Below are positions 6,881 through 64,000 of a DNA stretch of 64,000 nucleotides, piece by piece. The DNA is from a phage: the sequence record PZ445428.1; one strand, given 5' to 3'. The stretch's first letter is position 1; each line of letters opens with the position of its first letter. Made by a program: the position numbers and the translations under genes. The notes below the pieces were generated by a model. That model saw only the letters and a list, made by a program, of their open reading frames with translations, searched no databases and had not been told where the DNA came from.

Positions 6881-6889
6881 TAAAACTAA

Positions 6890-6916: not shown

Positions 6917-6926
6917 GAAATTTTAC

Positions 6927-6955
6927 TTGCTAATCGCGACCTGATTTGCTATAAT
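6927..6955 (+). promoter_or_regulatory. early promoter cassette (-35 TTGCTA, -10 TATAAT)
   Basis: Consensus hexamers with 17-bp spacer upstream of HNH/nrdB. Confidence 0.6.
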
Positions 6956-6979
6956 ATCTCTATATTAAGGAGATATACT

Positions 6980-7498: not shown

Positions 7499-7501
7499 TT
7501 A

Positions 7502-8647: not shown

Positions 8648-9183
8648 TGATAGCAGCAATCTATGCAACTGGGCCGAAAGGGGAGTTCGGCCTCAATGGT
8701 AGACTCCCTTGGGGTTCCTTCAAAGAGGAACTAGATATATTTTATGCCACACTAGATTCTCTAGCACCTGATAACATCATCATTGGTGCAGGTACGTGGT
8801 TGGGCTTTCCTGAAACGCTTCAAAAGCGGATTTTAGGGGATTCTGATCTGTTTATTTATGCCAATGCCCACAAGCCTTTACCAGAAACTATTGGGTGCCC
8901 TACTCGAATTACTAGCATTGGGTATACTTTGCCTGAATTCTTTAAGGAAGAAGTAACAGTAGTATTGGGCGGAGCAGCTTTGCTCCTAGAGATGTATGCT
9001 AAAAATCACTTAGACATGGCATATGTTTCGACAATCGCATCAGCAACACCATTATCAGCTGATGTACACTTGCATCCACATATTACTATGACTAACTCGA
9101 TGGCAACCAGAATGGAGTATGCATCAGGGGAGAATGCGGATAAAACCCTTTCCTTCCTACAGGAGCTGGTAACGTTTAAATGA
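8647..9183 (+). CDS. frd: dihydrofolate reductase
   Basis: 178-aa ORF between nrdB and thyA; N-terminus IAAIYA..G..G.LPW DHFR-like; start overlaps nrdB stop. Confidence 0.65.
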
Positions 9184-10034
9184 AACAATATATTGAAACA
9201 GGAAAACGTATTCTCGAAGAAGGTCAGTGGGTAACTAATCCTAGAACAGGTGTACGTTGCCTCACTATTATTGATGCAGATTTCACTTTTAATGTGGGGG
9301 CTAATGAATTTCCTCTTATTACTACTCGTAAGGCATTTGCAAAACAAGCAATAATGGAAATGATTGGCTATCTACGTGGTTATGACTCCGCAGCACAATT
9401 CCGCGATATCGGGGTTAATACGTGGAACGCTAATGCAAATGAAAACCTTGCATGGTTGGATAATCCATATCGTAAAGGCGAGGATGATATGGGACGGGTC
9501 TATGGTGTTCAAGGACGTCATTGGACAAACTCTGATGGTCTTATGTTTGACCAATTATCCAAGATCTATCGTAACCTGAAAAGAGGGATTGATGATCGTG
9601 GGGAAATTCTAACTTTCTGGAATCCGGGGGAGTTCTCAAAGGGCTGCTTGCGTCCTTGTATGCACACCCATCAGTTCTCTATTCTAGGTGATACCTTATA
9701 TCTGAATTCATTTCAGAGGTCTAATGACTTCCTGCTAGGCCAGGTATTTAACATGGTTCAATGCTACGCTTTGCTTGCAATCATGGCTCAAATCACTGGA
9801 TATAAACCTGGGATCGCTCGCCAAAAGATCGTGAATCTTCACATCTATGAGAATCAGTATGAAGTTCTAATGGAACACAAACAGTTTGATCGTGAACCTT
9901 TTGAGCCGCCTCATCTGATTATTAATCCAGATATTCGAACTTTGGATGATGTATTAACTTGGGTAAGTAAGGATGATTTTACTGTTCGTGGCTATGAACA
10001 TCATCCTGCTATTGCATATCCATTTACGGTGTAA
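9180..10034 (+). CDS. thyA: thymidylate synthase
   Basis: 284-aa ORF; [10 protein letters not shown] catalytic-Cys region and QRSNDFLLG motif typical of ThyA. Confidence 0.85.
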
Positions 10035-10037
10035 CAT

Positions 10038-10391
10038 ATGTTAATTATACTATTATTTGTAATATTCTTTCTAAAACATTTTATGGCCGATTATCCTCTC
10101 CAAACACCATATATGCTAAGAAAGACTCATAAAATAGGGTGGAAACTTCCATTATTAACCCATTCTCTAGTACATGCTGTATTAACATTTGCAATTCTAA
10201 TTCTATTCACATCACTAGGGATGGCTATAGCTTTAGCTATTATGGAATTAATTTTACACTTTATTATAGATTATTGGAAAGCACAACGCTGTAAGTACGC
10301 TATAAGCGATGCTAAGTTTTGGATAGCTTTAGGATTTGATCAGTTACTGCACTATCTGACATACGCCTTAATAATCTTGATTATAATCTAA
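10038..10391 (+). CDS. small hydrophobic membrane protein
   Basis: ORF track; multiple predicted TM stretches. Confidence 0.5.
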   Translation: MLIILLFVIFFLKHFMADYPLQTPYMLRKTHKIGWKLPLLTHSLVHAVLTFAILILFTSLGMAIALAIMELILHFIIDYWKAQRCKYAISDAKFWIALGFDQLLHYLTYALIILIII

Positions 10392-50189: not shown

Positions 50190-50470
50190 TCAACACTTTC
50201 TTCTAGACTCCTAAGTTTCTAGGAAAACTCTCGATATCCAGGGCAGTTTTCATTATTCCTAGAAACTCTAGCAATAGGCGGTTAATACAGTAAACTGTCA
50301 TTTCAGTCGCTACCCTCCTTCAATGACAGGGCGGTTATAGGGAGGGCGGTTATTTCTAGGAGACATTTTTTGAAAACACATTTCTGGAAATTCTCATCGG
50401 ATTTGCACATTACATTTCTAGAAATTTATGGTCGGATTTGCACATTGATAGAAGACTCCAGAATTTCTAT
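50190..50470. repeat. cluster of TTTCTAGRAA-type palindromic motifs (about 6 copies)
   Basis: AGTTTCTAGGAAAACT, TTCCTAGAAACT, CATTTCTAGGAGA, TACATTTCTAGAAATTTATG, CCAGAATTTCTATG read in sequence. Confidence 0.5.
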
Positions 50471-50996
50471 GAACATTGAAAATAGCAGCATTATTTCGGG
50501 CCGAAGGCCCATGTTTGCCTGAGTTTTTAGAGCCACAGGAATTTTCACTTGTCAAGCAATTTTGCCCCCTTTAACTAATAAAATTTCACATAATCTCCAC
50601 CTATCTCAAATCTCCCCAAAACATCCCACATTATCCCCAAAAACGCAGCAAATAAGGCGTTTCACGCCATTTCCGCTGCCCCTTCCGTTTCTCCTCTTAT
50701 TTTCTCTCACTGCGTCAACTCTCACACAAACTCACACAATCACACACTCTCTCATCGAACTCACAAAAACTTCATCGGATTCGCACATCTTAACCCTAGA
50801 AAAATCATGTCGTATTTGCACATATGCGGCTGGATTTGTGCGCAGCACGAGTCTGCCCGAGTTTTTAGGAAAATTCATTGTCGGATTTGCACAATATAAA
50901 ATATTTTCGGGTCGGATTTGCACACTACCAAAAATTGTCGGATTCGCACATACACGCCCACGCGTAATTCATGGCGGCAAATGTCGGATTTGCACA
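50394..50996 (+). repeat. array of about 9 direct copies of 14-bp motif GTCGGATT(T/C)GCACA with irregular spacing
   Basis: Copies near 50397, 50431, 50775, 50809, 50830 (degenerate), 50880, 50911, 50937, 50983, all same orientation. Confidence 0.8.
50570..50760 (+). repeat. CA/CT-rich low-complexity tract (CTCACACAA repeats)
   Basis: Strand-biased pyrimidine+A composition; generates spurious Pro/Ser/Thr/His ORFs. Confidence 0.6.
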
Positions 50997-51039
50997 AAAG
51001 CGCAGGGCAAAATGAAAATGCCCTGCTGGCCGAAATGCG

Positions 51040-51175
51040 AATGATAATGAGAACGATTCGCATTTGAGAAGTTGAATGCGAATGAGAATGAGTCGCGTTT
51101 GGAAAGTGGAATGAGAATGGTTATTATTTACAGAGTTGAATGCGAATGAGTCGCATAATGAGAATGATTTGCATT
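51040..51175 (+). repeat. tandem GAATGCGAATGAGAATGA-family repeats
   Basis: GTTGAATGCGAATGAG twice plus several GAATGAGAATG units. Confidence 0.7.
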
Positions 51176-51204
51176 TAGGGAGGGAAGTGAGAAACACTGC
51201 TATT

Positions 51205-51305
51205 TAAGTTATCCACAGGTTTATCAACAGCACGATTTGACTTGACAAAACCCTAGCGATTTTGAGGCGTTTTCAACAGACTTATCAACAGGTTATCCTA
51301 CTGGA
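51205..51305. promoter_or_regulatory. cluster of DnaA-box-like 9-mers (one perfect TTATCCACA, plus TTATCAACA x2 and TTATCCTAC)
   Basis: Consensus TTATCCACA at about 51209-51217; related boxes at about 51221, 51282, 51293. Confidence 0.5.
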
Positions 51306-51345
51306 TAAATATACAGTATTCCTGCGTAGGGAATAACTCTAATAT

Positions 51346-51385
51346 AGCGTTTAAACGCTCTCAAACGCATTCTAAGCGGTTTAAT
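51346..51385 (+). repeat. copy A of ~30-bp repeat AAACGCTCT..AA.GC.ATTCTAAGCG.TTT
   Basis: Near-identical to copy at 54931-54968; inverted related copy at 54393-54430. Confidence 0.55.
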
Positions 51386-51691
51386 TTTGGAGGAGGTATT
51401 TTAATAAGGGGAAATTTGTTTGCAGGCAGAAAAGGCGGGGCCGATAGTTGCGCCCCGTTATTATTAGAGGAGTGGGCAATTATCCCGCTTTGCCATTTCG
51501 CGCCACTCCTCCCACTGTTTCACCTTGCGGCGATGTTCCAAAAACTTTTTAAACCACTGTTTCATAATGCCATCGCACCTAGAATGAGAATGATTATTAT
51601 TAACATTGCAAAGCCGTTCCCAAATCGTAAACGCTGGGAATGTTTCCCAGCGGTATTATTAGATTTATGGGATTGCGTTTTACGCCACCAG

Positions 51692-51877
51692 CTATTCACG
51701 GTAGACACGCCAGCCGTCATTAAACATTTCACGGCTGTAAAATTCATGATTGAATTTGTAACCGTCCTCAGTGGTGATCACTTCATATTTCATGAATAAA
51801 TATTCATGGATAGAAAAATAACGATGGGTTACTTTTTCACCTTCTAGCATAGCCTTTACAGCTTCATTTCTAGTCAT
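51692..51877 (-). CDS. hypothetical protein (61 aa)
   Basis: ORF track; start overlaps stop of upstream gene (ATGA); AAGGTGG RBS. Confidence 0.45.
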   Translation of the reverse strand: MTRNEAVKAMLEGEKVTHRYFSIHEYLFMKYEVITTEDGYKFNHEFYSREMFNDGWRVYRE

Positions 51878-52218
51878 TGCGCCACCTTTCGAAACGCTGT
51901 TTCAATACTTTCAGCGGTTGATTGAATATACGCGCCTTTCATAATCAGGCGCTCTGTACATACTTTGCGGAAAATATCAATAAATTCATCTTCATTTTCT
52001 GCAATCAAAGGCTCACCCATAACCTGAATATCGCATGAGTTAAAAGTAAGAAACTGAAAGGCAAGCTCGCGAGCGACAACGGCATTAATCTTATAATGTG
52101 CTTTTCCTTCATAGATGTTAACCACGCCTTTATAAACTGGTGAAAGCTGATTTAAATAGTTTGCTAACAATGCCGGACGGCAATTAGTTACAAAGCGGTT
52201 GCCTTCATAAATAACCAT
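51874..52218 (-). CDS. hypothetical protein (114 aa)
   Basis: ORF track 51874..52317 trimmed to ATG after AGGAG RBS. Confidence 0.5.
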   Translation of the reverse strand: MVIYEGNRFVTNCRPALLANYLNQLSPVYKGVVNIYEGKAHYKINAVVARELAFQFLTFNSCDIQVMGEPLIAENEDEFIDIFRKVCTERLIMKGAYIQSTAESIETAFRKVAQ

Positions 52219-52354
52219 TAGAAATATACTCCTGTTACCAGATTGTAGCACAAACGGACGGTAGCAGATATTGACAGCGCCACGGCACAAACGCCCCCAA
52301 ACGCCGCCACTATACAAACAACGGTTTCACAAGTTTTTTCAAAATCGCTTTTCA

Positions 52355-52567
52355 TTATAATACCCCACGAAAAGCAGCGTAAAAAGTAGCAAAGTGTTTA
52401 ACCGTTTCCGCTATCAAATTGCCGCGCTTATCAAATTTCTTTTCTGTAACACGGAAAGCGTTTTTGTTGCGCGGTACATATTCAATTTTGCAGTCGTCAC
52501 GCTCAAACGTGTTAACATCCACCAGCTTAAAACCTTTAGAACGGGCAAGGGATACATTTTTCAACAT
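52355..52567 (-). CDS. hypothetical protein (70 aa)
   Basis: ORF track; strong AGGAGG RBS. Confidence 0.5.
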   Translation of the reverse strand: MLKNVSLARSKGFKLVDVNTFERDDCKIEYVPRNKNAFRVTEKKFDKRGNLIAETVKHFATFYAAFRGVL

Positions 52568-52624
52568 TTTACTTCCTCCTAGTAAGGGAATTTTTTACTC
52601 CACCATTTCGGTGTAAAGGCATTA

Positions 52625-52657
52625 TAACAAAAAAGGCCGCCGATTAGGGCGACCTTT
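52625..52657 (-). terminator. hairpin terminator (minus strand)
   Basis: AAGGCCGC...GCGACCTT hairpin with A-run on plus strand to the left. Confidence 0.45.
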
Positions 52658-52670
52658 ACAAAACTTTACA

Positions 52671-53144
52671 TTACGCTATTTCTGTGACTTCAATACTGTA
52701 TAACTCTCTTAAAGCCTGAATGAGAACGTTGTACTCTTCCCATTCTTTCCCCTCGGGAATATATACAAGTTGCTTTAATCGGTTGGCGTATAATAACGCC
52801 TTGTTATCATTAATAGCTACGCCGCCGTGTTTAACAATCCATCGTGTAACAGTTCCAATCGGATCACCGCCATTAACATAAATACCTGATTGCGTCAACT
52901 GATATTTATAGAGGCTGCCTTCAATACTATTATCTTCAATGCCGCTTTCGAAATCCTCATCATTTTCGAAACGAGAAGCATTATCATATGCTAGTTCTTG
53001 GGCGAAAGCGTCCAGATCACAGCCAGCAGGAATAAAATGTTCCTCCGTCCAGTTCTCTCCGCAATAGCCCGTATTGCAATCTGATATAACGATCATATCG
53101 TGGTTAGCTTTCCCGCTAACAGGTAAACCGTATTTCTCTGACAT
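52671..53144 (-). CDS. hypothetical protein (157 aa)
   Basis: ORF track; AGGAGA RBS; CG-rich codon usage unlike the early region. Confidence 0.6.
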   Translation of the reverse strand: MSEKYGLPVSGKANHDMIVISDCNTGYCGENWTEEHFIPAGCDLDAFAQELAYDNASRFENDEDFESGIEDNSIEGSLYKYQLTQSGIYVNGGDPIGTVTRWIVKHGGVAINDNKALLYANRLKQLVYIPEGKEWEEYNVLIQALRELYSIEVTEIA

Positions 53145-53160
53145 TAATTAGTCTCCTAAC

Positions 53161-53193
53161 TAAAAGGGAAAAGGCGGGGCAAACTACCCCGCC
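53161..53193 (-). terminator. rho-independent terminator (minus strand)
   Basis: GGCGGGG-caaacta-CCCCGCC hairpin with A-run on plus strand to the left. Confidence 0.55.
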
Positions 53194-53202
53194 CGATTAT
53201 TA

Positions 53203-54210
53203 TTACTCGCTTTCGGCGTTTTGGGTAAAGGTGGAAATGTCAATGCCTTTTACCATTTCGTCGATCATTTCAGCGATGTTAAAAGATTGTACCATTTCTA
53301 ACATTGCCGCTTCCATTGCCGCGCCTGCTACTGCTTTAGCTTTTGCGTTAGTCGGGGCGTACTGGTCAACCGCTACGCTTAACAGGTTAGCGATCACTAC
53401 GCGGCCAATCGGCGTATCAATATAACCTTTAATCATAAACGGTGCTTTTTTCGCCGCTACTTTTGTGATTTGAGTCAAAGCAATTTTACCCGCTTCCAGT
53501 TTAGCAGCGTTTACAACGGCGGATTTATTAGCGGCGATGATAGAAGTTACTTTAGACATAGTGTTATTTCCTTTATTTTCAGTAGTTTGCGCAATTGCGC
53601 TTGAAGTTTGAGTGTTAGAGCTTACAGCTTGTTTAGCTACGTTGTCAACTGGTTTTAATGTAAATCCAGATTTTGCGACATTCATCACATTATCCTCATC
53701 CTCAAAATAACTTTGAGGAAACAACATGTTACCTGTCGAACGTTCAAAACACAATACGCCGGTAGTAGAAATTGAATCATCTTTCGCGCGGCTAATATGT
53801 GTACCACACTCGCCCCAAATGCTAGACAATAAATCTTCTACACTGCTAGAGTTAATATTAGATACCCGAACGCCGAAAACTTGATCTTTATCCTGTACAT
53901 TATAACCACGGGCAAGATAACCGCGATCGTCATGACCTACAATGATAAAATCAATATTGTTTTCACGGCGATTATTAAAGATGAAATAATCACGGTTATA
54001 TAATACTAAAATCCGCGTAGGATCAAGTAATTGTGTGAAATCATCAATTGAATAATCCACCTCACAATCATCTAAAATCATGCTGTGGATTTGTTCAACC
54101 TTTGCCGCCGTATGGTGAACGCTTGCCGCGCTACTACCATCTAGCAGATTGCGCAAACTACCTTTTAAAATAGTTGCGTTTTCTGGTACTGCAATTCTGG
54201 TCAAAGACAT
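53203..54210 (-). CDS. hypothetical protein (335 aa)
   Basis: ORF track; GAGGGAG RBS; Ala/Lys-rich C-terminal half. Confidence 0.6.
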   Translation of the reverse strand: MSLTRIAVPENATILKGSLRNLLDGSSAASVHHTAAKVEQIHSMILDDCEVDYSIDDFTQLLDPTRILVLYNRDYFIFNNRRENNIDFIIVGHDDRGYLARGYNVQDKDQVFGVRVSNINSSSVEDLLSSIWGECGTHISRAKDDSISTTGVLCFERSTGNMLFPQSYFEDEDNVMNVAKSGFTLKPVDNVAKQAVSSNTQTSSAIAQTTENKGNNTMSKVTSIIAANKSAVVNAAKLEAGKIALTQITKVAAKKAPFMIKGYIDTPIGRVVIANLLSVAVDQYAPTNAKAKAVAGAAMEAAMLEMVQSFNIAEMIDEMVKGIDISTFTQNAESE

Positions 54211-54392
54211 TTCTTTGTCTCCCTCGTTAATCGGTGAGTGAATGATATAGATATTTGTTCACTATGGGCAACGTTTATTTTACCTTTTTATTTTTCTTGC
54301 TCAAATCGAAAAAGTATGCTAACCGCGCGTTTTCTATTTCTAGCTCTCTGTAAGCGTACACAAGGCTTTATTATAATAAGGGTAACAGTGAG

Positions 54393-54430
54393 AAAACCGC
54401 TTAGAATCGATTCTAGACCGCTTAAAATTG
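54393..54430 (-). repeat. inverted copy of TTCTAAGCGG-family repeat
   Basis: AAACCGCTTAGAATCGATTCTAGACCGCTTAAAA. Confidence 0.45.
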
Positions 54431-54930
54431 ATTGCGGTTGTTAGTGCTACCTATTTACCCTGTATATTTATACAGTAGGATAACCTGTTTATAAGTCTGT
54501 AGATAAGTCCTCTTATCTCTGCCTATTGCGTCAAGTTATTTTGTGCTGTGTATAACTTTGGGGATAAGTTAAATGATAGTGGTTCTCACTTAGCCCGATA
54601 GTTTCTCATAGTTATTATTTCTCATTAATTTATATGTATATTATATATTATGGAATAGTTAGTTGGCTAATAGGATTTTCCGTGATTAATAGTCTGCTAA
54701 TGATAACGCATGTTACAATCCACCAGCGCGATTACCATCCTAGCGACTGTTAGCGTGCTAATGATCCATAACGTTACCAATTCTTAAATGATACTCATTC
54801 TCATTGTAGGAAAGTTACGAAATGCTGTTATAAAGCAACATGTCAATAGCAAAGCGGGTAAGGCATAAAAATAAATTTTGTCAATACCCGAAAGTTATTA
54901 AATGTGGTGTGAATAAGTTATCAACAGGGT

Positions 54931-54968
54931 CTAAAACGCTCTGTAAGCGATTCTAAGCGCTTTTGATG
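54931..54968 (+). repeat. copy B of ~30-bp repeat, preceded by DnaA-box-like TTATCAACA
   Basis: CTAAAACGCTCTGTAAGCGATTCTAAGCGCTTTTGATG; TTATCAACA at about 54918. Confidence 0.55.
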
Positions 54969-55377
54969 AAAAGCTATCCCATCATAAGGGGACTATACCG
55001 AACGCCTCACCACGAGGATTTTAGATTTTGTCAAGTACCCTAGAGCAGATATAAATGAAAAAATTACTTGCTTAAATGGTTGTTTTCGTGTTATTCGCGC
55101 GCCCGTTTCATTAAATTTAGTGCCTTGCTGGACGTTTGCGGAGACTGGTTTTCTTTACGTTTCTTTACAAAAATAAGGTTGCGCCATTTTCGGGAATAAC
55201 CTATTATTTATCTCGTAGGACGGCAAGACGGAAACGAAAGGCCAGAATACACGGTAAGGATAACAGCGATTGACAGTCTGTATGACCTTTCAAAACCTTA
55301 CCACGCTCTTTAAAAATCAGGTACAAGATACATATTAAAGCCTATCGGCTTACTCCACTAAACAAGGATAAGACGAT

Positions 55378-55569
55378 ATGAGAGAAAAACTGTATGATGC
55401 GACTATTTCAAATGAAATCAGGACGCTAGATAAAATTACAGTAGAACAAGCCGAAAATGTGATTAAATTTGTTGAAAAATATGATGGTGAATGTTTCTTT
55501 ATAAGAGACGATATCTACGCATGTTGTTACAAATCACATAATTTTTCAGTTACTCATAAAGGTTTATAA
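55378..55569 (+). CDS. hypothetical protein (63 aa)
   Basis: ORF track. Confidence 0.45.
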   Translation: MREKLYDATISNEIRTLDKITVEQAENVIKFVEKYDGECFFIRDDIYACCYKSHNFSVTHKGL

Positions 55570-55570
55570 T

Positions 55571-55780
55571 ATGAAACAATCTCTTTTGCTAACGGGTAAA
55601 CCTGCTAGCCCATTAAACAGCAGAACAAAAAAGCTCTTGACAGTAGCGCAACAATCCGTAAAATACAGATTCAAGCAATACAAGAAAGGCAAGCAACAAG
55701 GTTTAGAAATGGTGTGGCGTAATATAATGATTGATTTATATAACTCACATCAAATCGAAAAAAGTTTAAAAAACGCTTGA
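55571..55780 (+). CDS. hypothetical basic protein (69 aa)
   Basis: ORF track. Confidence 0.45.
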   Translation: MKQSLLLTGKPASPLNSRTKKLLTVAQQSVKYRFKQYKKGKQQGLEMVWRNIMIDLYNSHQIEKSLKNA

Positions 55781-55962
55781 CGCTCCAGCCGATAGGCTCT
55801 AATATGTATCTCGTACCACGGCGAATGACAAAACGCCCTGCTCTTTAAAAATTTGGATAACGGTAATGTTTAGGCTAACTCCTAGCGGATTATAATCTAA
55901 TACCGATTTAAAACATCAAATCGGTATTGTGGAATAATCCCCAATAAACCGGAGTATTAAAA

Positions 55963-56214
55963 ATGCAAAACGTTATTACCGCGCCGAAAGTTGGTCAATC
56001 TGTATTCATTCCTTTTGTTACTAAAACGGATGAATTAACCGGAAAAGCCGAACGTATTAAAGGTGCGGCGCTTGATCCTTTCGATAAAATCGAAGCGGTC
56101 TATGCGGAAACGGAACGCAGTAACCACGGCAAGCCGATTTATAACGTCCGTGTTAAATCAGGCGACGTTGTAAAGATCATTCAAAAAGATGATAAATGGC
56201 AAGCTATCGCATAA
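55963..56214 (+). CDS. hypothetical protein (83 aa)
   Basis: ORF track; GGAGTATTAAAA before ATG. Confidence 0.5.
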   Translation: MQNVITAPKVGQSVFIPFVTKTDELTGKAERIKGAALDPFDKIEAVYAETERSNHGKPIYNVRVKSGDVVKIIQKDDKWQAIA

Positions 56215-56470
56215 TAAGCGGTAACGATTTTAAATTAAAATATCATGCTTAGAGCGGCAATTATGAGCTAACTCGAAGTAATAGCGAGAAATTACCATAC
56301 CAGTGAAAGTGATAAAAGCTATCGGTTATAACCTTTAGCGCCTTAATTGGCTTTAAATTGAAAACTATAATCTAGAGTTTTCGTTATATATTTCGTGACT
56401 ATATACCGGAATATATAGCGGCTAATTCTAGCCATAATCCCTTAATTAAAAATTGAATGGAGTATTAAAT

Positions 56471-56887
56471 ATGTCTAACGTTAAAACCGAAAAAACCGCA
56501 AAATTCTCTTGGAACGAAGAAAACACCGAAAAAGCGGTATCAATGTATAATACTTTCGTAAAAGATAGCGGCATTGAATTTGCTAACACTGACGGCTTAA
56601 AAGAAATTGCCGCCGCCGTTGGCGCTGCAAGTCCTGTTTCTGTACGTTCTAAATTGACAAGCGCGAAAGCGTATCAGAAAAGCGATAAACCGCGTAAAGT
56701 TGGCGGCGGGTCTAGTGTCCGTAAAGCTCACTATGTACGCGTCATTGCTAAACACGCCATTGATTCAGGTATCGTAAAAGATGCTGACGATCTGGCATCG
56801 CTGGAAAGTGCAAAATTGGAAACGCTGGACGCGGTAGCGCAATTGCTCGGCGTAGCGGAGGAAGTAAAACAGGCCGCAGGTGAATAA
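56471..56887 (+). CDS. hypothetical protein (138 aa); possible A2-like pre-early protein
   Basis: ORF track 56453..56887 trimmed to ATG after AATGGAGT; size and position relative to A1-like gene fit T5 A2 (inference only). Confidence 0.4.
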   Translation: MSNVKTEKTAKFSWNEENTEKAVSMYNTFVKDSGIEFANTDGLKEIAAAVGAASPVSVRSKLTSAKAYQKSDKPRKVGGGSSVRKAHYVRVIAKHAIDSGIVKDADDLASLESAKLETLDAVAQLLGVAEEVKQAAGE

Positions 56888-56936
56888 ATTTTAATTAGCG
56901 GGGAATATTCCCCGCTATCCCTGAAAGGAGAATAAA

Positions 56937-57164
56937 TTGATTTTCTATCCTAGCGAGTCGCTAATATTAGGTTTATTCCTGATAGCGGTTATATTTATCT
57001 TTAATTACGGTAAATATATAATTGCAATAATCGGTATTAATTCAGTATATGCCGCCGATAAATTTAAACGATCGGCAAATGTGCAAAAGTATTTAGCCAT
57101 TATCTTTTTAACGCTGGCTATAGCTTGCGGTTTTAGTTCTAGTCTAGTGCCTATATTAGAATAA
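56937..57164 (+). CDS. small membrane protein (75 aa), TTG start
   Basis: ORF track; AAAGGAGA RBS. Confidence 0.35.
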   Translation: MIFYPSESLILGLFLIAVIFIFNYGKYIIAIIGINSVYAADKFKRSANVQKYLAIIFLTLAIACGFSSSLVPILE

Positions 57165-57270
57165 TATTGCAAATTATAACGCCTTTAAAAGTCCCCACTT
57201 CGGGTAAGGCGTTATATTTGGCAATATTGCCAGTATTAATAATTATCCCTTTAATGGAGTTGAATTAGTT

Positions 57271-58935
57271 ATGAATATTTCCGCTGAAAAACAAGCTCAA
57301 ATCGTTAAACTTGCTGCTGATTTTAATTTCTACGGTAAACGTTTACGCGCTACTAAGCTGGAAGTGTGCGACGATATTTCAAAAGCTGTTTACGATACAA
57401 CGAAACATTCAACCGCAATCTGTGACTGGCTGGAAGCAAACAAGCCAGCAAAACCAAAAGCGGCAAAAGCTGAAAAGGCGATTAAAAATGATGATCGCCC
57501 CGAAGCGGCAGGGATTGTTTCTAGTACCGTTGAACAATGGGAAGTTAAATCCGGTCGCCGTTTTATTCTAACGTCGATTCAAAATAACACTTTCCCGCAT
57601 AAAAACTTTTTAGCAAGTCTGGAAAAATTCGCTGATTATATCGGCGCTGAATTGCTGATTAGTAAATTCATTTACAATAAAAACGGCTTCCAGAATGGTG
57701 AAGGTAGCGACGGCATTAAATACGATCCCGCATTTAATAAATATATTTGCGAGAAAAACGTATTTTTGAATAATCGCCGCTTTGCTTTCATGGCTGAAAT
57801 TAACGTATTACCAACGGCAGATTATCCGCTTTCAGGATTCGCAGAAACCGCCACGGCTTTAAATATTGAAGGTTTGGCAATCGGTCACGCTAAAATCACC
57901 GCTGAAAGTGTGCCAGCGTTAAAAGGTGAAATTGTGCGCCGTATGTATTCAACCGGAACGGCTACGCTTAAAAACTACATCCAGCAGAAAGCAGGTCAAA
58001 AAGCTGAAGCGTTACATAATTTCGGCGCTTTGCTGGTGGAGTTCGACGACGACGGCGAATTTTTTGTTCGCCAGCTTGAAACAATGGATGAAAGCGGAAT
58101 GTTCTATGATTTGAATATTTGCGCCACTCCTAGCGGTTGCAAAGAAATTACAGGACACGTTTTAGGCTTGCAATATGGCGATATTCATGCCGAAAAATTA
58201 GATGATGAATGTGCCGTTGCGTCATGGGCTAGTGAAAATTCATTGCTGGATATTCTTAAACCGAAATATCAGTTTATTCATGATGTGCATGATTTTACAT
58301 CCCGCAATCACCATAACCGCGCAAGTGGTGTATTCCTTGCTAAACAGTACGCCGCAGGACGTGACAAAGTTCTGGATGATCTAATTGATACGGGTCGCGT
58401 ATTGGAATCAATGGAGCGTGATTTTAGTCAGACAATCATTGTTGAATCTAACCATGATTTAGCGCTTTCACGCTGGCTTGATGATCGCAACGCTAACATT
58501 AAGGACGATCCCGCAAACGCCGAACTATATCACCGCCTGAATGCAGCCATTTACGCCGCAATCGGTGAACGTGATGAAACGTTTAACGTGTTAGATTACG
58601 CGCTTAGAAACGTTGCTGGCTGCGAATTTAACGCCATATTCCTGACTACTGACCAGTCGTTTAAAATCGCTGGCATTGAATGCGGCGTACATGGTCACAA
58701 CGGCATTAACGGCAGTCGTGGCAATCCTAAGCAGTTTAAGAAACTTGGACGCCTTAACACTGGTCACACTCACACGGCTAGTATTTACGGCGGCGTTTAT
58801 ACCGCTGGCGTTGCTGGTAATCTTGATATGGGCTACAACGTCGGCGCTAGTAGCTGGACGCAAACGCATTTAATTACCTATGCAAACGGTCAAAGAACAT
58901 TGATTGACTTTAAGAATGGTAAATTCTTTGCATAA
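57271..58935 (+). CDS. A1: A1-like pre-early protein (metallophosphoesterase-type nuclease domain)
   Basis: 554-aa ORF with GDIHAE and HD..H metallophosphatase-like motifs; size close to T5 A1 and adjacent to dmp-like gene. Confidence 0.6.
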   Translation: MNISAEKQAQIVKLAADFNFYGKRLRATKLEVCDDISKAVYDTTKHSTAICDWLEANKPAKPKAAKAEKAIKNDDRPEAAGIVSSTVEQWEVKSGRRFILTSIQNNTFPHKNFLASLEKFADYIGAELLISKFIYNKNGFQNGEGSDGIKYDPAFNKYICEKNVFLNNRRFAFMAEINVLPTADYPLSGFAETATALNIEGLAIGHAKITAESVPALKGEIVRRMYSTGTATLKNYIQQKAGQKAEALHNFGALLVEFDDDGEFFVRQLETMDESGMFYDLNICATPSGCKEITGHVLGLQYGDIHAEKLDDECAVASWASENSLLDILKPKYQFIHDVHDFTSRNHHNRASGVFLAKQYAAGRDKVLDDLIDTGRVLESMERDFSQTIIVESNHDLALSRWLDDRNANIKDDPANAELYHRLNAAIYAAIGERDETFNVLDYALRNVAGCEFNAIFLTTDQSFKIAGIECGVHGHNGINGSRGNPKQFKKLGRLNTGHTHTASIYGGVYTAGVAGNLDMGYNVGASSWTQTHLITYANGQRTLIDFKNGKFFA

Positions 58936-58987
58936 TTAAATTTAATCGGCGGTTGAAATATACCGCCATTAATAAAAGGATAATTAA

Positions 58988-59260
58988 ATGTCTATTAAAA
59001 TTAATATTCCATCTAGTAAAAACGTGTCAGATGTTTACGATATTAGCCAGATAAGGCAGGGCACTGTATATCAAAATATTAAAGATGGTGAATGTTATAT
59101 TTACCAGAATGAATTAAACGGTCATTCATATATTATTGAATCACACGATTTTTATTCTTTTGAAACTGACCACGAGGCAAGGGAATTTATTTCTGATAAT
59201 GATTTGCCTGACGCATGGAAAGAAACAAATCTAAACTTTGTTGTAAGTTTAGAAAAATAA
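58988..59260 (+). CDS. hypothetical protein (90 aa)
   Basis: ORF track. Confidence 0.45.
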   Translation: MSIKINIPSSKNVSDVYDISQIRQGTVYQNIKDGECYIYQNELNGHSYIIESHDFYSFETDHEAREFISDNDLPDAWKETNLNFVVSLEK

Positions 59261-59296
59261 ATTAATCCCGTAATTAAATAATCTGGAGTTATAAAC

Positions 59297-59689
59297 ATGA
59301 AACAATCAAACATTCCTTTTGATCGCGCCGCTTCTTCAATCGTTCTGGTTTATTCTAATGGTGAACGCTATCACGTTGAATCAGGTCATGTTATCGACGA
59401 TTTGCTAAACTATAACGAAGCGTTACAGGTTACAACGTTTGCATATATGACAGGGAAAGCGGCAAGCCATATTAAAGCAAAAGGCGTTTATGTCGATACA
59501 ATCAAACAAGAAACGATTATTATCGATGCTGTTAAATCCGGTCTAGCGTTTGCAGTTGTCGCGCCGTGTCTCGGTTGCCTTGATGATCAAATGGTATCGG
59601 CAAAGGTCTACACTTGCGCGGGGATTCGTTCTAGCGTATCCGGTGAAGATGTTAGCTTTATTGCTGATGCTCTCGCTTTTGGTCTGTAA
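59297..59689 (+). CDS. hypothetical protein (130 aa)
   Basis: ORF track. Confidence 0.5.
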   Translation: MKQSNIPFDRAASSIVLVYSNGERYHVESGHVIDDLLNYNEALQVTTFAYMTGKAASHIKAKGVYVDTIKQETIIIDAVKSGLAFAVVAPCLGCLDDQMVSAKVYTCAGIRSSVSGEDVSFIADALAFGL

Positions 59690-59778
59690 TAGTTAATTGA
59701 ACATTGCCAGCTAATCTAATATAATTAGCTGGCAAGATTGAATTAATAACCCAGTCCCTTAAATGGAGAAAGTAACAA

Positions 59779-60513
59779 ATGAATCAAGTTAACATGAATA
59801 TTACCCGCACTTTCCCGCATATTTCCCGCGTTATGATTTGGGATTTAGACGGAACGGTTATAAATAGTTTTCATCGTGTAGCGCCTTGCTTTGATGATAA
59901 CGGGAATTTAGATTTAGTTAAGTATTCCCGCGAAGCCTGCAAACATGATTTAATTATGCAGGATTCTTTATTGCCATTGGTTGAATATATGCGCCAATGT
60001 ATGAATGATGCTAATACATTAAACATCATTTGCACCGCTCGCTTAATGTCTAAAAGCGATTATTTCTACTTACGTAAACAAGGTCTAAGAGGGCGCGGAA
60101 ATAGTAACATTCGCGTGTTTTCCCGAGATACATTACATAAATACTTTGAAGCGGAAAAGGTTAGCGATATATATCACAGCAAAGACGCTGTATATAAATC
60201 TTATTACTTTGAACTGTTTAAACAGCTATATCCGAACGCTGATTTTACGATGATTGATGATCATAAAGGCGTATTATCAGCAGCAGCAAACGCAGGATTT
60301 AAAACACTGGACGCTCAAGCCGTTAACGATATCCTATCAATCGGGGTAACATTGATCGGTGAAACCTTTATTGATGAATCGCTTGATGATGATAACGATT
60401 ATCAATTCCTAGCCGAACGTTTAAAAATGTGTTGGGAAGGTATGACCGAAGAAGAACGCAGCGAATATAGTACCACGCCGCAACAGTTCATTGATAAATT
60501 AAAAGTTGCCTAA
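59779..60513 (+). CDS. dmp: 5'-deoxyribonucleotidase-like HAD-family hydrolase
   Basis: 244-aa ORF; HAD motif I IWDLDGTVI near N-terminus; size matches T5 dmp. Confidence 0.6.
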   Translation: MNQVNMNITRTFPHISRVMIWDLDGTVINSFHRVAPCFDDNGNLDLVKYSREACKHDLIMQDSLLPLVEYMRQCMNDANTLNIICTARLMSKSDYFYLRKQGLRGRGNSNIRVFSRDTLHKYFEAEKVSDIYHSKDAVYKSYYFELFKQLYPNADFTMIDDHKGVLSAAANAGFKTLDAQAVNDILSIGVTLIGETFIDESLDDDNDYQFLAERLKMCWEGMTEEERSEYSTTPQQFIDKLKVA

Positions 60514-60677
60514 CAATTAAAAATAAAATAGTCACGGTGTGTAATGATAACATGCCGTGACTATTAGCTTGCTAAGTACCGGGGCGGTAATGAGACTCAT
60601 TCTCATCTGGGGAACCACTGGGCCCACCTCCATGTGTAATCTTATGAAATTTGGCAAAAAGGTAATTAGCGCTAAAC

Positions 60678-60923
60678 TTAGGAGGAACGCCTATCTACTG
60701 GCTTATCTCCCGATTCTGACATACGAAATCTCCTCCGAGAACTTCTTGAGCCATCGCTCCACTCCCGCTCGAACTCCTCCCGTTTCTCCGCAAACCTCCT
60801 CTCTCTTTCCGAAAGCTCCCGCATCAGCCCCGAGACATATTCACGATGCCTGTTGATTGCCGCAGCCGTCCCGAAAATACCTGCAAGCACCCCGATAATA
60901 AATATGATTACTAAAGTTGACAT
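60678..60923 (-). CDS. small membrane protein (81 aa)
   Basis: ORF track 60678..60959 trimmed to internal ATG (MSTLVIIFIIG...). Confidence 0.35.
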   Translation of the reverse strand: MSTLVIIFIIGVLAGIFGTAAAINRHREYVSGLMRELSERERRFAEKREEFEREWSDGSRSSRRRFRMSESGDKPVDRRSS

Positions 60924-61031
60924 TATCCCACACACCCCGCCATTGCCGCAATAAACCAAACTACGAAAATTAGAAATAGTACAGTCCCGAATCCGAAACT
61001 ATTTATCCAACTCTCGTACACTTCCCCTCTT

Positions 61032-61310
61032 TTATTTCTTCTGTTGTCGTTTGACATCTCTTTGCTTCTCCTGTAAGCCTGGTATTTGGAAGATCCTAGA
61101 TATTGCACGAACCATTACGACTGTCCCGATAAGATCCATTACTTCATCGAAGCCGGATTCTTCTAGTAAGAAGGATGTTCCCATAACATCTTCCATTGTA
61201 TCTTGTATGACGTCTTGAATAATTTCGTTTATTGCATCATGTATTGCCTTTGTCTTGGGATCTAACTCTAGAGGTAGAGGTTCCTGAAAAGGCTTATCAT
61301 TTTCTTGCAT
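61032..61310 (-). CDS. hypothetical acidic protein (92 aa)
   Basis: ORF track. Confidence 0.4.
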   Translation of the reverse strand: MQENDKPFQEPLPLELDPKTKAIHDAINEIIQDVIQDTMEDVMGTSFLLEESGFDEVMDLIGTVVMVRAISRIFQIPGLQEKQRDVKRQQKK

Positions 61311-61384
61311 TGTGTTTGCTACCTGTACCTCATCCCAAAAATAAAAATTTTTGTTTACTTCGAGATCTTTTTAATTTATACTAA

Positions 61385-61651
61385 TTACAAGTATCCAGAT
61401 TGTTCGAGATTAAATTTACAATCACCGTATTTTAAATCGAATTGTGATAAGTCCCACCAACCAAATTTAGTACGCATCTGTACTTTAGGGAAACGATATC
61501 CTACTTCACGAACATCTCGGATTGTTAAGCTATAGTGACCCGACCCTGCTGCCCACGAAGTTTTCACATATGAAGTACAGAATGGTTTCGGTTGTGGTGC
61601 ACAGCCAGATAATAGTGTTATAGTAGCTAAAGCGATTAGTAACTTTTTCAT
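61385..61651 (-). CDS. llp: lipoprotein, Llp-like (putative lytic-conversion / receptor-blocking lipoprotein)
   Basis: ORF track 61385..61669 trimmed to ATG (MKKLLIALATITLLSGC...); lipobox LLSGC; divergent from adjacent receptor-binding protein gene as in T5 llp-oad. Confidence 0.5.
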   Translation of the reverse strand: MKKLLIALATITLLSGCAPQPKPFCTSYVKTSWAAGSGHYSLTIRDVREVGYRFPKVQMRTKFGWWDLSQFDLKYGDCKFNLEQSGYL

Positions 61652-61734
61652 TTTAGTTCTCCAGTTCAATTTATAAATATATTATAACAAAATAATAGGA
61701 ACAGAGCAACTACATTTTTAATTTAGGAGATTGT

Positions 61735-63507
61735 ATGGGTTTTTTCGCAGGAAAGTTTAGTGATGGTAAAACAGTATTATCACTAACAAACAATAATGGT
61801 GGAGACACCAATGAACATTACAGTCCTGGTGGTAATACAATATTTCACTCTGATATGCCCTTCGTTCTAGTAGACGGGACATATGAGGCTGCTCTAGGTA
61901 ACGCCGGTAATGGGTATTTTGTTTGTGCGATGCCTTCTGATATCATTAATATGAAGTCTAATGATCCTGGTAGAGTAATCCTTACTGCTATTGAGATTAA
62001 TGGTACGCATAGGGGGTTCCTCAATGGTACACAATCGCAAGTAGGTCAGTATCTTACTTTTGCAGAAGAGCCATCACGCGCATTTGCTGCTGTTGGATTA
62101 AGTTCAGCTTTTGCTATTGGGGATAGTTTGGCTAGTGGTACATATATATACAATAGTTTAATAGGTCATGAAGAATCTATAGCGCGTCAAGGTACTGGTG
62201 GTACACTAATTCAGGGTTCTGATTTTGGTATAGTAAGGCCAGGTGGATTTGTACCTGCAGGTGAAGCTATTGCAGGGGCTTATGATTTACTAGGCTTCCC
62301 CAAAGGGTCTAGTACTGTACCTTTGGATGGTGGAAATGCTAAATACTGGGATCCGAACTGGTATAACCCTATTGGGTCTGCTGGTAGGGGGCATAATCAT
62401 TTTTATGTGTGTAGCTCTAACATTCGTAGCTACATCGGAAAGAAAAGAGAAGTTCCTGCGAATACTAACGTATTCTATAACCCTAGTACTCTAGTTTACG
62501 CATGTAGGGGATCCGCTAGTAACATGGCTAGTCAGTCTGTTAACACCGTTTATGTTCAGGATTGGTATAATATTACTCCGACCAAAGTTATTTGGTATGT
62601 ACTGAATCTACGTTATTCAAATGGTAATATGGGAGTTTCTGGAACTCCCTTTACTGGTTCTGATATACTTATTTCCCCCTCTAATTTTACTATTAAAGGT
62701 GTTAGTCTCCCTAACACAGGATATAAGTTCATTAACCAGAATGCTTTTGGGAACTTGGGTTATCGTCCTGACATGGAGTACGTGGGTAATAATGCTGCGT
62801 ATACTGGAGTTTTTGGCGATACAACCGCTAGATGTGAGTTCATTGGCTCTAATAATGGTAGTCTATGGTCCCCTGTAAACTACGGAGGTGCTGCCTCCCA
62901 GATTAGTATATACAAGTTTAATGCGGGTAAACAGTGGTACGTAGATACTAATACTAACTCTATTGGCAACGAACATGGGGCTGTGTGGAGTCCAAGTACA
63001 GTTCCTCTCAGATTATTTCCAAATAACGTGGCTAGTACGTATGTTGGGGATGATATTACTCCTTCGTACCCAGGTACTGGAGATTACTATCTTCCTCTAT
63101 CAACTGTTTGGTTGGGGCTACCTAATGCCCATTCTACTATCATCCTAACTACTGAAGTTATTATGGGTAATATTAATACTGCCGGACAACCAATACGTAC
63201 GTATGGTGGTAGTGCTTGGCAGGTACAGGGTAGGCGTCAACAGAGCTATACTGCGGGTGATGGAGTATTCCACCAAATATTGACTTTGCCACCTGGTTAC
63301 TTAGTACCTTATCATGGAACTTCTTCTTATAGCTATTGGCAATTATGGGGTAGTAGACCAGATATGGAATTCCGTAGAAACGGATATATCTACACAGTAA
63401 AGAACCTGGGTAATGGTAATGTCGAGTTCGGTGTAATTATACATGCTGGATCTCAGGCTGCTATATTCCTACCAAGACTACGTGTAACTGCACAGCGCCT
63501 GACCTAA
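61735..63507 (+). CDS. receptor-binding tail protein (pb5/Oad/Hrs-like)
   Basis: 590-aa Gly/Asn/Ser/Thr/Tyr-rich ORF next to llp-like gene; GGAGATTGT RBS. Confidence 0.55.
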
Positions 63508-63518
63508 AGGAGGTAATT

Positions 63519-64000
63519 ATGGCAAATGATGTTTTAGTACCTGATCTCATGTCTCCTGAAGGCATGGACGTAATTGAGGCTTATCTACAATGTGGTAGTG
63601 ATGTACGAATGGCCTCACGTACTCTTGGAATGTCGGAAATTGCATTCCGCGATATTATGAATCGTGGTGAGGTAAAGAATTATCTCAACGACATATTTAT
63701 GGAGAGTGGCTTCCGCAATCGTGACAAGTTATTTGGTGTACTCGATGAAGTCATCAAGCGCAAGTTGGAAGAACTCGAAGAAACTGGTATGGGATCTGAC
63801 CAGGATATCATGGATATTCTGTGGAAAGCCCATAAAATGAAGATGGAAGAAATGAAGATGATGGTAGAGCTGGAGAAAGCGAGAGCTGCTACACGTGCTC
63901 CTACTAATCAGACTAACATTCAGAACAACATTATTGCTGGCTCCGGTGATCAGAACTACATGGACTTAATTACTTCGCTAGCAACTGGAGGTAGAAAGTA
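63519..64000 (+). CDS. HTH DNA-binding protein, possibly terminase small subunit (3' end beyond window)
   Basis: AAGGAGG RBS; helix-turn-helix-like [16 protein letters not shown]; no stop before window end. Confidence 0.35.

What the first reader, a model, noticed from the sequence alone, without database searches (positions are those of the whole stretch)
60514..61734. Probable terminal-repeat / genome-end junction between dmp-like gene and llp-like gene
In T5-type genomes dmp lies at the physical end within the long terminal repeat, whereas llp/oad lie at the opposite end of the unique region. Their adjacency here, with only small divergent membrane ORFs between, suggests this window spans the collapsed terminal-repeat junction of a linear genome (assembly circular permutation) rather than true contiguous unique sequence.
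Basis: inference. Interest (0 to 1): 0.45.

Follow-up and report, generated by a model that had tools for sequence, protein, structure and literature searches.

The report
T5-type terminal-repeat boundary, collapsed assembly
The flagged stretch holds the point where the left physical end of this T5-like phage's DNA, and so the edge of its 10-kb terminal repeat, should lie; this is a textbook feature of T5-like phages, stored here in the usual one-repeat-copy form, so it is ordinary.

Summary
The window is Escherichia phage TrudiGerster (BASEL Bas27, MZ501108.1, Epseptimavirus): record bases 50662-114179, then a wrap to bases 1-482.

A Cor/Llp-type lipoprotein is at 61385-61651 (-), and the receptor-binding protein is at 61735-63507 (+).

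The deposited left ends of eight relatives all align to window 60623 (±1). These include T5, and Sw2 and Sugarland, whose repeats were set by PhageTerm. That position is 110 bp after the dmp stop. The inner repeat boundary of T5 and Sw2 aligns to 50529|50530. The predicted repeat is therefore 50530-60623 (10,094 bp), and it is present once.

The depositors state that their genomes carry the repeat once and were linearised at the small-terminase gene.

The core reading (repeat boundary, collapsed and permuted assembly) holds, but the argument does not. The dmp-llp adjacency is native at the right repeat of every T5-type virion, so this DNA is truly contiguous there. The collapse is shown by the other flank of the repeat.

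No reads were available, so the end itself is inferred by homology. One side result is a 31-bp non-coding block abutting the terminus, which is the best-conserved part of the spacer.

Already known; low interest.

The parts
50530..60623 (.). Predicted long direct terminal repeat (10,094 bp), present once in this collapsed assembly. It lies in reverse orientation relative to the T5 map. It carries the pre-early genes A2, A1 and dmp, and an iss-like non-coding repeat region at its inner end.
   Evidence: The inner boundary of T5 (10219|10220) and of Sw2 (PhageTerm, 9816|9817) aligns exactly to 50529|50530. Those of Stitch and vB_SenS-3 fall within 5 bp. The outer boundary is set. No second copy occurs elsewhere in the window or in the record.
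59779..60513 (+). dmp, deoxynucleoside-5'-monophosphatase; the last gene of the repeat, transcribed towards the terminus.
   Evidence: PHROG 415 at E 3.6e-56. 89% identity to T5 Dmp. Annotated as dNMP-monophosphatase, bas27_0196.
60527..60565 (.). A 16-bp-stem hairpin just after the dmp stop, inside the repeat. On the minus strand it is followed by TTTTATTTTT. It is probably a transcription terminator that stops read-through from the llp operon into the repeat, and perhaps also ends the dmp transcript.
   Evidence: Plus strand: -23.6 kcal/mol, z -5.0. Minus strand: -17.9 kcal/mol, z -3.7. T5 has a different sequence at the same place that folds into an even longer hairpin (z -6.7), so the structure is kept through sequence change. 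The simple terminator scan did not list it, because its loop is longer than the scan allows.
60583..60597 (.). Conserved repeat-internal block GGCGGTAATGAGACT, 27-41 bp inside the predicted terminus.
   Evidence: Conserved in T5 (GGCGGTTAGCAGACT) and in Klebsiella phage Sugarland (GGGGGTAATCGGACT). Mean pairwise identity over 60564-60603 is 0.79-0.83.
60623..60624 (.). Predicted left physical terminus of the virion DNA, which is also the outer boundary of the terminal repeat. 60623 is the last repeat base and 60624 the first unique base.
   Evidence: The record ends of T5, Sw2 (PhageTerm), Stitch, vB_SenS-3, BD13, L6jm, EASG3 and Sugarland (PhageTerm) all align here, ±1 nt, 93-124 bp past their dmp stop.
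60624..60654 (.). Conserved 31-bp non-coding block CCACCTCCATGTGTAATCTTATGAAATTTGG, immediately outside the repeat. It is a candidate terminase recognition or termination signal for the left-end cut.
   Evidence: It is the highest-conserved stretch of the spacer: mean pairwise identity 0.83-0.92 across 10 phages of 3 genera, against 0.81-0.85 for the dmp 3' coding end and 0.18-0.53 just beyond it. It occurs once in the window. The function is inferred.
60678..60926 (-). orfA, a small single-pass membrane protein homologous to T5.162; the last gene of the llp operon. The likely true start is the ATG at 60923.
   Evidence: PHROG 6447 at E 1.7e-41. 68% identity to T5.162 and 85% to Stitch164. Kyte-Doolittle maximum 2.64.
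60923..61057 (-). orfB, a 44-aa protein with a C-terminal transmembrane helix, homologous to T5.159.
   Evidence: PHROG 8596 at E 1e-21. 65% identity to T5.159. Kyte-Doolittle maximum 2.63.
61032..61310 (-). orfC, a 92-aa acidic protein of unknown function with no clear transmembrane helix. A homologue is present in Stitch; none was found among the T5 ORFs compared (T5.158-T5.162 and Dmp).
   Evidence: PHROG 16810 at E 4e-54. 86% identity to Stitch162. Kyte-Doolittle maximum 1.31.
61385..61651 (-). llp/cor-type superinfection-exclusion (receptor-blocking) lipoprotein, divergent from the RBP gene.
   Evidence: PHROG 1119 at E 2e-21. Lipobox LLSGC. 66% identity to Stitch Cor, and only the signal peptide resembles T5 Llp. 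Annotated 'superinfection exclusion protein'.
61735..63507 (+). oad-type receptor-binding tail tip protein (pb5 homologue); the first gene of the unique-right block, followed by terS.
   Evidence: PHROG 4815 at E 2e-259. Annotation.
63518..63519 (.). Arbitrary linearisation point of the GenBank record. 63518 is record base 114179, and 63519 is base 1, the ATG of the small terminase gene. The window wraps across it.
   Evidence: Window 63519-64000 is identical to record bases 1-482. The linearisation rule is stated in PMC8594841.

Best explanation
The window is the one-repeat (concatemer-like, circularised) form of a T5-type genome, Escherichia phage TrudiGerster.

The flagged interval begins with the last 110 bp of the long direct terminal repeat. 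That stretch holds the dmp-distal hairpin and a conserved GGCGGTAATGAGACT block. The interval crosses the repeat's outer boundary at 60623|60624, and this is where the left physical end of the virion DNA is predicted to lie. It then continues into the right end of the unique region: a 54-bp spacer containing a 31-bp conserved block, then an operon on the minus strand (llp/cor, orfC, orfB, orfA) that reads towards the repeat and is divergent from the RBP gene.

In virions the repeat (window 50530-60623, 10,094 bp) should be present at both ends, giving about 124.3 kb.
- The left-hand copy would end at 60623 as a free end, and enters the cell first as first-step-transfer DNA carrying dmp, A1 and A2.
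- The right-hand copy would be joined to the llp side exactly as the window shows.

Inferred mechanism: the terminase cuts replicative concatemers, which carry one repeat per unit, at two fixed sites, 50529|50530 and 60623|60624. The left end is ejected first, so it should be packaged last. Packaging would then start at the 50530 cut, run in the window's + direction through one whole unit, and stop at 60623. That stop lies just before the conserved 31-bp block, when the head is nearly full.

Shown here: gene identities, both boundary positions by homology, the single repeat copy, and the conservation pattern. Inferred: the actual ends of this phage, the cutting enzyme, the packaging direction, and the role of the conserved block.
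For: - Identity of the window: 100% match to MZ501108.1, with zero mismatches over 15,819 bp, and a wrap to record bases 1-482.
- Outer boundary: the left ends of eight independently deposited relatives align to 60623 ±1. Two were set with PhageTerm (Sw2; Sugarland), and T5, Stitch and vB_SenS-3 carry annotated repeats.
- Inner boundary: those of T5 and Sw2 coincide exactly at 50529|50530, in a stretch that is almost invariant on both sides.
- Left flank of the repeat: the 295-aa ORF bas27_0179 sits where T5.018 lies in T5 and has the same length and orientation. Its sequence was not compared directly, but about 600 bp of unique-left DNA beyond the boundary aligns with T5, Sw2, vB_SenS-3 and Stitch at 79-82% identity.
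- Right flank of the repeat: llp/oad/terS.
- Native adjacency: the same dmp-small ORFs-llp-oad order occurs at the right repeat of T5, Stitch, vB_SenS-3, EASG3 and L6jm.
- Depositors' statements on linearisation and on the single repeat copy (PMC8594841).
- Electron microscopy reports of intracellular circles of T5 length minus one repeat, and the remark that assemblers mishandle these repeats (bioRxiv 10.1101/866236).
- Conservation peak at 60624-60653.
- An iss-like repeat region with a paired DnaA box at the inner end of the repeat (described for 25 T5-like phages in 10.1101/866236).
Against: - The terminus is placed purely by homology, and the bases at the cut differ slightly from the relatives: CCACTGGGC|CCACC here against CCTCTGGGC|ACACC in Stitch.
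- Two records from one laboratory, chee130_1 and pork29, annotate the repeat start only 8 and 16 bp after the dmp stop.
- Some of the 'left ends' in GenBank may have been set by analogy with T5 rather than measured, so the eight records are not fully independent.
- No significant similarity was found between the two cut sites in this phage or in T5, so a single shared recognition sequence is not shown.
- The role of the conserved block is unproven.
Confidence: 0.88

Rival explanations
1. There is a repeat boundary in the interval, but at a different base: a few bases after the dmp stop (about 60521-60529), as annotated for chee130_1 and pork29. In that case the hairpin and the conserved blocks would lie outside the repeat.
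For: chee130_1 annotates its right repeat as starting 8 bp past the dmp stop. pork29 places dmp 16 bp from its left end.
Against: Eight other records from several laboratories and three genera end 93-124 bp past dmp at one homologous position. Two of them were set by PhageTerm.
Confidence: 0.05
2. The interval is plain internal sequence with no physical end in it. On this view TrudiGerster packages by a headful mechanism with permuted ends, or has its ends elsewhere, and the dmp-llp adjacency has no structural meaning.
For: The record is one contiguous 114-kb sequence with no repeat annotated. No end data are available.
Against: Both repeat boundaries of T5 and Sw2 are conserved here, almost base for base at the inner site. 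The pre-early gene set and the iss-like region that define the T5 repeat are present in the expected order. The depositors themselves treat the repeat as present but listed once.
Confidence: 0.05
3. The junction is an assembly error: a false join of two regions that are never adjacent in any real molecule.
For: Assemblers are reported to scramble T5-like genomes because of the repeats (10.1101/866236).
Against: The same join, with the same spacer sequence, is present in 177 records at ≥80% coverage. These include full-length records that carry both repeats, such as T5, Stitch, vB_SenS-3, EASG3 and L6jm.
Confidence: 0.01

Closest known systems
Bacteriophage T5 terminal repeats (LTR 1-10219 and RTR 111532-121750 in AY543070 / NC_005859)
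   Same: - The gene order dmp, two small ORFs, A1, a small ORF, A2 reads inward from the left end.
- The terminus lies about 110-123 bp beyond the dmp stop, at a homologous sequence.
- The inner boundary falls at the same conserved sequence, TTTTTA|GAGCCACAG.
- An iss-type non-coding repeat region lies at the inner end.
- The small membrane ORFs, llp and oad directly abut the start of the right repeat.
   Different: - Only about 71% nucleotide identity across the junction.
- The hairpin sequence differs, but the fold is kept.
- T5 has four small ORFs (T5.159-162) where this phage has three, one of which (orfC) matched none of the T5 ORFs compared.
- Llp shares only its signal peptide with T5 Llp.
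- The T5 record lists the repeat twice, and this record lists it once.
Epseptimavirus genomes with defined ends: Salmonella phages Sw2 (MH631454.2, PhageTerm), Stitch (NC_027297.1) and vB_SenS-3 (MT004791.1)
   Same: - Same genus.
- 86-93% identity across the junction.
- The same terminus position, 110-111 bp after dmp.
- The same inner boundary, within 5 bp.
- Repeats of 9.5-10.0 kb, against 10.1 kb predicted here.
   Different: - Stitch carries an extra 71-aa ORF just outside the conserved block.
- These records start at the physical end, and Stitch and vB_SenS-3 show both repeat copies. TrudiGerster's record starts at terS and shows one copy.
Collapsed direct terminal repeats in short-read phage assemblies (the general phenomenon; PhageTerm class 'DTR long')
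   Same: One repeat copy is flanked by both unique ends. The assembly is circularly closed and then opened at an arbitrary gene.
   Different: Nothing unusual. Neither flank of the collapsed repeat is an artificial join, because each exists in the virion at one of the two repeat copies.

Membership tests
T5-type (Demerecviridae) long direct terminal repeat | Pre-early genes dmp, A1 and A2 in that order from the left end, inside the repeat | tested here: met
   A2 is bas27_0191, A1 is at window 57271-58935 (PHROG 1745, E 1.6e-243), and dmp is at 59779-60513. The order and orientation are as in T5 reversed.
T5-type (Demerecviridae) long direct terminal repeat | Left terminus at a fixed site shortly beyond the dmp stop | tested here: inconclusive
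   The homologous position is present at 60623 ±1, and the ends of eight relatives align there. The physical end of this phage itself was not measured.
T5-type (Demerecviridae) long direct terminal repeat | Inner repeat boundary beyond a large non-coding iss-type region with direct and inverted repeats and paired DnaA boxes | tested here: met
   The boundary aligns to 50529|50530. The adjoining DNA is repeat-rich and mostly free of annotated genes (one 40-aa ORF, bas27_0180, at 50426-50548 spans the boundary), with at least 8 GTCGGATTTGCACA copies and TTATCCACAggtTTATCAACA at 51208-51230. This matches the description in 10.1101/866236.
T5-type (Demerecviridae) long direct terminal repeat | An identical second copy of the repeat at the other end of the virion DNA | not testable with these tools
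   The record and the window hold one copy. The depositors say the repeat is listed once. Reads or virion DNA would be needed.
T5-type (Demerecviridae) long direct terminal repeat | llp and oad at the right end of the unique region, directly abutting the start of the right repeat | tested here: met
   The arrangement is the same as in T5, Stitch and vB_SenS-3.
Collapsed-repeat, circularly permuted assembly | A single repeat copy flanked by unique-left on one side and unique-right on the other, with the record origin at an arbitrary gene | tested here: met
   A T5.018-like ORF (same position, length and orientation) lies left of 50530, and that flank aligns with the unique-left DNA of four relatives. 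llp/oad/terS lie right of 60623. The origin is at the terS ATG.
Llp/Cor receptor-blocking lipoproteins | Small lipoprotein with a signal peptide and lipobox cysteine, encoded next to and divergent from the RBP gene | tested here: met
   The product starts MKKLLIALATITLLSGC. It hits PHROG 1119 at E 2e-21 and lies 83 bp from the RBP start on the opposite strand. Receptor blocking itself was not tested.
Dmp deoxynucleoside-5'-monophosphatase | Full-length homology to T5 Dmp | tested here: met
   89% identity over all 244 aa.

The most novel reading that the evidence does not exclude
The 31-bp non-coding block at 60624-60654 lies immediately outside the repeat at the left-end cut, and the GGCGGTAATGAGACT block lies 27-41 bp inside it. 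Together they may be the so far undescribed terminase recognition/termination signal of the T5 family. I found no description of it in the searchable literature. On this reading, a sequence-specific cut gated by head filling produces the left end. The block is conserved from T5 to the Klebsiella Sugarlandvirus, while the 20 bp at the cut itself vary.
Probability: 0.35. Interest if true: 0.35.

Novelty: already known. Interest (0 to 1): 0.1.

Why it matters
Practically, the deposited 114,179-bp sequence under-represents the virion DNA by one 10.1-kb repeat, so about 124.3 kb is predicted. Its coordinates start at an arbitrary gene. Anyone using it for restriction-site counts, genome-size comparisons, synteny or engineering of the ends should know where the real ends probably are: 50530 and 60623 in window coordinates, which are 101191 and 111284 in the record.

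Biologically nothing new follows. The arrangement is the textbook T5 layout. The only mildly useful by-product is a precise, testable candidate for the sequence that directs the left-end cut in T5-like phages.

Tried and rejected
- Shared sequence at the two cut sites. Local alignment of ±60 bp around 50529|50530 and 60623|60624, direct and inverted, against 500 shuffles gave no significant similarity in this phage (p 0.4 and 0.3) or in T5 (p 0.6 and 0.4). Only Sugarland showed a significant 19-nt direct match, CAGCCTCACGTAATATTTT / CACCCTCACGTAAAACTTT, which exceeded all 500 shuffles. A common recognition motif is therefore not claimed.
- Other copies of the conserved block. CATGTGTAATCTTATGAAATTT with up to 3 mismatches occurs once in the window.
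- Known RNA families. Rfam at E ≤ 1 over 60300-61900 returned nothing.
- Simple promoter/terminator scan. It did not list the dmp-distal hairpin, whose loop is too long for the scan. Its promoter-like hits are barely above the shuffle expectation (13 against 7.1 ± 2.6), so I did not use them.
- DnaA-box enrichment over the whole window. It is not significant: 9 matches against 7.6 expected. Only the local paired boxes at 51208-51230 are meaningful.
- The palindrome TGGGCCCA across the cut. I considered it as a cleavage site and rejected it, because it is absent from Stitch, Sw2 and T5.
- A 'Corynebacterium phage' record that matches orfA. I checked whether its start coincided with the terminus. 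It does not; the first 80 bases are unrelated.

Full report
**What the window is.** The stretch 59700-62000 is 100% identical to Escherichia phage TrudiGerster (MZ501108.1 / NC_105114.1). The record is 114,179 bp, genus Epseptimavirus, family Demerecviridae, locus tags bas27_, from the BASEL collection. A 15,819-bp stretch of the record matches the window without a mismatch and ends at window 63518. The last 482 bases of the window are record bases 1-482, starting with the ATG of the small terminase gene. The window is therefore record 50662-114179, wrapped onto the record start.

**Checking the observation.** Position 60514 is the first base after the stop of a 244-aa Dmp homologue at 59779-60513 (+). 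It hits PHROG 415 at E 3.6e-56 and is 89% identical to T5 Dmp. Position 61734 is the base before a 590-aa receptor-binding tail protein, which hits PHROG 4815 at E 2e-259. Four minus-strand genes lie in between:
- orfA at 60678-60926: single-pass membrane protein, T5.162 homologue.
- orfB at 60923-61057: 44 aa, C-terminal transmembrane helix, T5.159 homologue.
- orfC at 61032-61310: acidic, no clear transmembrane helix, Stitch162 homologue.
- A Cor/Llp-type lipoprotein at 61385-61651: lipobox LLSGC, PHROG 1119 at E 2e-21.

The small ORFs are not divergent, however. They form one co-oriented unit with llp that converges on dmp. A1 (57271-58935) and A2 lie upstream of dmp, as in T5 read backwards.

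**Where the repeat ends.** T5's dmp stop lies 123 bp from the left physical end. I aligned the deposited termini of eight relatives to the window:

| Phage | Source of the repeat boundary |
|---|---|
| T5 | annotated repeat |
| Sw2 | 'terminal repeat region determined by PhageTerm' |
| Stitch | annotated repeat |
| vB_SenS-3 | annotated repeat |
| BD13 | record end |
| L6jm | record end |
| EASG3 | record end |
| Klebsiella phage Sugarland | 'predicted by PhageTerm' |

All eight stop at the same column, window 60623, with T5 and EASG3 one base further. That is 110 bp after the dmp stop. Two records from one laboratory, chee130_1 and pork29, place the boundary only 8 and 16 bp after dmp. I treat these as outliers.

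The inner boundary of T5 (10219|10220) and of Sw2 (9816|9817) aligns exactly to window 50529|50530, TTTTTA|GAGCCACAGG, in a nearly invariant stretch. Stitch and vB_SenS-3 fall within 5 bp of it. The predicted repeat is thus window 50530-60623, or 10,094 bp, and the predicted virion DNA is 114,179 + 10,094 = 124,273 bp.

**Is the assembly collapsed?** Yes.
- Left of 50530 lies a 295-aa ORF with the position, length and orientation of T5.018, which is unique-left DNA in T5, and about 600 bp of that flank aligns with the unique-left DNA of T5, Sw2, vB_SenS-3 and Stitch at 79-82% identity. Right of 60623 lie llp, oad and terS, which are unique-right DNA. One repeat copy flanked by both unique ends cannot exist in a linear virion molecule, but it is the structure of the circle or concatemer.
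- The repeat has no second copy in the window, and dmp occurs once in the record.
[quoted passage not shown] - Electron microscopy of intracellular T5 circles, whose length equals the genome minus one repeat, is summarised in bioRxiv 10.1101/866236. The same paper remarks that assemblers mishandle these repeats.

The adjacency of dmp and llp is not a sign of collapse. In T5, Stitch, vB_SenS-3, EASG3 and L6jm, whose records carry both repeat copies, the right repeat starts directly after the small ORFs, llp and oad. The same dmp-spacer-small ORFs-llp-oad order is therefore found in real, contiguous virion DNA. In 177 records one match covers at least 80% of the dmp-to-RBP stretch. Nothing at 60623|60624 is an artificial join. 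It is a boundary that exists natively at the right repeat, while the left repeat copy ends there as a free end. The only artificial break in the window is the record origin at 63518|63519. Of the 1,221 flagged bases, only the first 110 belong to the repeat.

**Anatomy around the terminus.**
- Just after the dmp stop is a 16-bp-stem hairpin at 60527-60565. The plus strand folds at -23.6 kcal/mol (z -5.0). The minus strand folds at -17.9 kcal/mol (z -3.7) and is followed there by TTTTATTTTT.
- T5 has a different sequence at this place that folds into a longer hairpin (z -6.7), so the structure is kept through sequence change. The likely role is a terminator that keeps transcripts of the llp operon from running antisense into the repeat. 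That role is inferred.
- In a 10-phage, 3-genus alignment of the junction, conservation dips over the 20 bp that end at the cut (0.58-0.69 mean pairwise identity).
- Conservation peaks immediately outside the repeat at 60624-60653 (0.83-0.92). This exceeds the dmp coding end (0.81-0.85) and collapses beyond 60674.
- The block CCACCTCCATGTGTAATCTTATGAAATTTGG is single-copy in the window. It is recognisable even in Sugarland when that record's end is joined to its start.
- A second conserved block, GGCGGTAATGAGACT at 60583-60597, lies inside the repeat.
- No Rfam family matches the region.

**Likely mechanism.** By established knowledge of T5, the left repeat enters first as first-step-transfer DNA, expresses dmp, A1 and A2, and transfer pauses at the iss region near the inner end of the repeat. 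Replication then gives circles and concatemers with one repeat per unit, and the terminase cuts them at fixed sites.

My inference for this phage is that the cuts fall at 50529|50530 and 60623|60624. The first-ejected left end should be the last packaged. Packaging would then start at 50530, run in the window's + direction for one unit plus one repeat, and stop at 60623, just before the conserved block. That block is a reasonable candidate for the termination signal.

I could not show a shared motif at the two cut sites in this phage or in T5 (p 0.3-0.6). Only Sugarland has a significant 19-nt direct match flanking its repeat. How the repeat is duplicated remains open for T5 generally.

**Comparison with what is known, and verdict.** Every element here is a described feature of T5-like phages. 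These are the dmp-A1-A2 repeat, the iss-type repeat region with paired DnaA boxes, llp/oad abutting the right repeat, and the collapsed single-repeat deposit. The DnaA pair is at window 51208-51230. The record's authors acknowledge the single-repeat form.

The finding is real and correctly located, but it is already known and ordinary. Its value is practical: the true ends are probably at record 101191 and 111284, and the virion DNA is about 124.3 kb. The physical ends of this particular phage remain inferred by homology. Read-depth and PhageTerm analysis or run-off sequencing would settle them.

Noticed in passing
window 63518|63519: The window itself wraps across the arbitrary origin of the GenBank record. 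Base 63518 is record base 114179, 11 bp after the RBP stop. Base 63519 is record base 1, the ATG of the small terminase gene. This is the only man-made break in the window, and it is a different place from the one flagged.
   Followed up: yes
window ~50380-51700 (both sides of the inner repeat boundary at 50529|50530): A repeat-dense region almost free of annotated genes, of the T5 'injection stop signal' type. It has at least 8 copies of GTCGGATT(T/C)GCACA, a cluster of AATGAGAATGA repeats at 51034-51206, and a DnaA box paired with a variant box, TTATCCACAggtTTATCAACA, at 51208-51230. An 18-nt sequence spanning the cut, GTTTGCCTGAGTTTTTAG at 50513-50530, recurs at 50851-50868 inside the repeat.
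   Followed up: partly
window ~60657-60680; loci L006 2823-3038, L021 622-837: An indel hot spot lies just outside the conserved block. Stitch and L6jm carry an extra 71-aa ORF here. SuperGirl, S133, NBEco001 and SP3 carry an HNH homing-endonuclease gene between dmp and the membrane ORF. Alignment identity drops to 0.18 at 60674-60683.
   Followed up: partly
locus L024 (PQ773600.1 1-3280): A 41-kb record named 'Corynebacterium phage CPphiVTCCBPA_418' carries T5-like genes: receptor-blocking protein, RBP and terminase. It is 93.7% identical to window 60759-60900. It looks like a mislabelled or contaminant T5-like fragment. Its start does not coincide with the terminus.
   Followed up: partly
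loci L007 (MF431736.1) and L016 (MF431732.1): chee130_1 and pork29 annotate their terminal repeats as beginning 8 and 16 bp after the dmp stop, about 100 bp short of the position shared by eight other records. Their repeat coordinates are probably approximate.
   Followed up: no
loci L017, L022, L023 (Klebsiella phage Sugarland): In Sugarland a 19-nt motif occurs in direct orientation just outside both ends of the PhageTerm-defined repeat: CAGCCTCACGTAATATTTT and CACCCTCACGTAAAACTTT. The match exceeded all 500 shuffles. No equivalent significant match exists in TrudiGerster or T5.
   Followed up: partly
window 60924-60926: The deposited start of orfA (bas27_0197) translates as isoleucine, a non-standard start. 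The ATG one codon downstream, at 60923, gives the 81-aa length of the Stitch homologue and is the more likely start.
   Followed up: no
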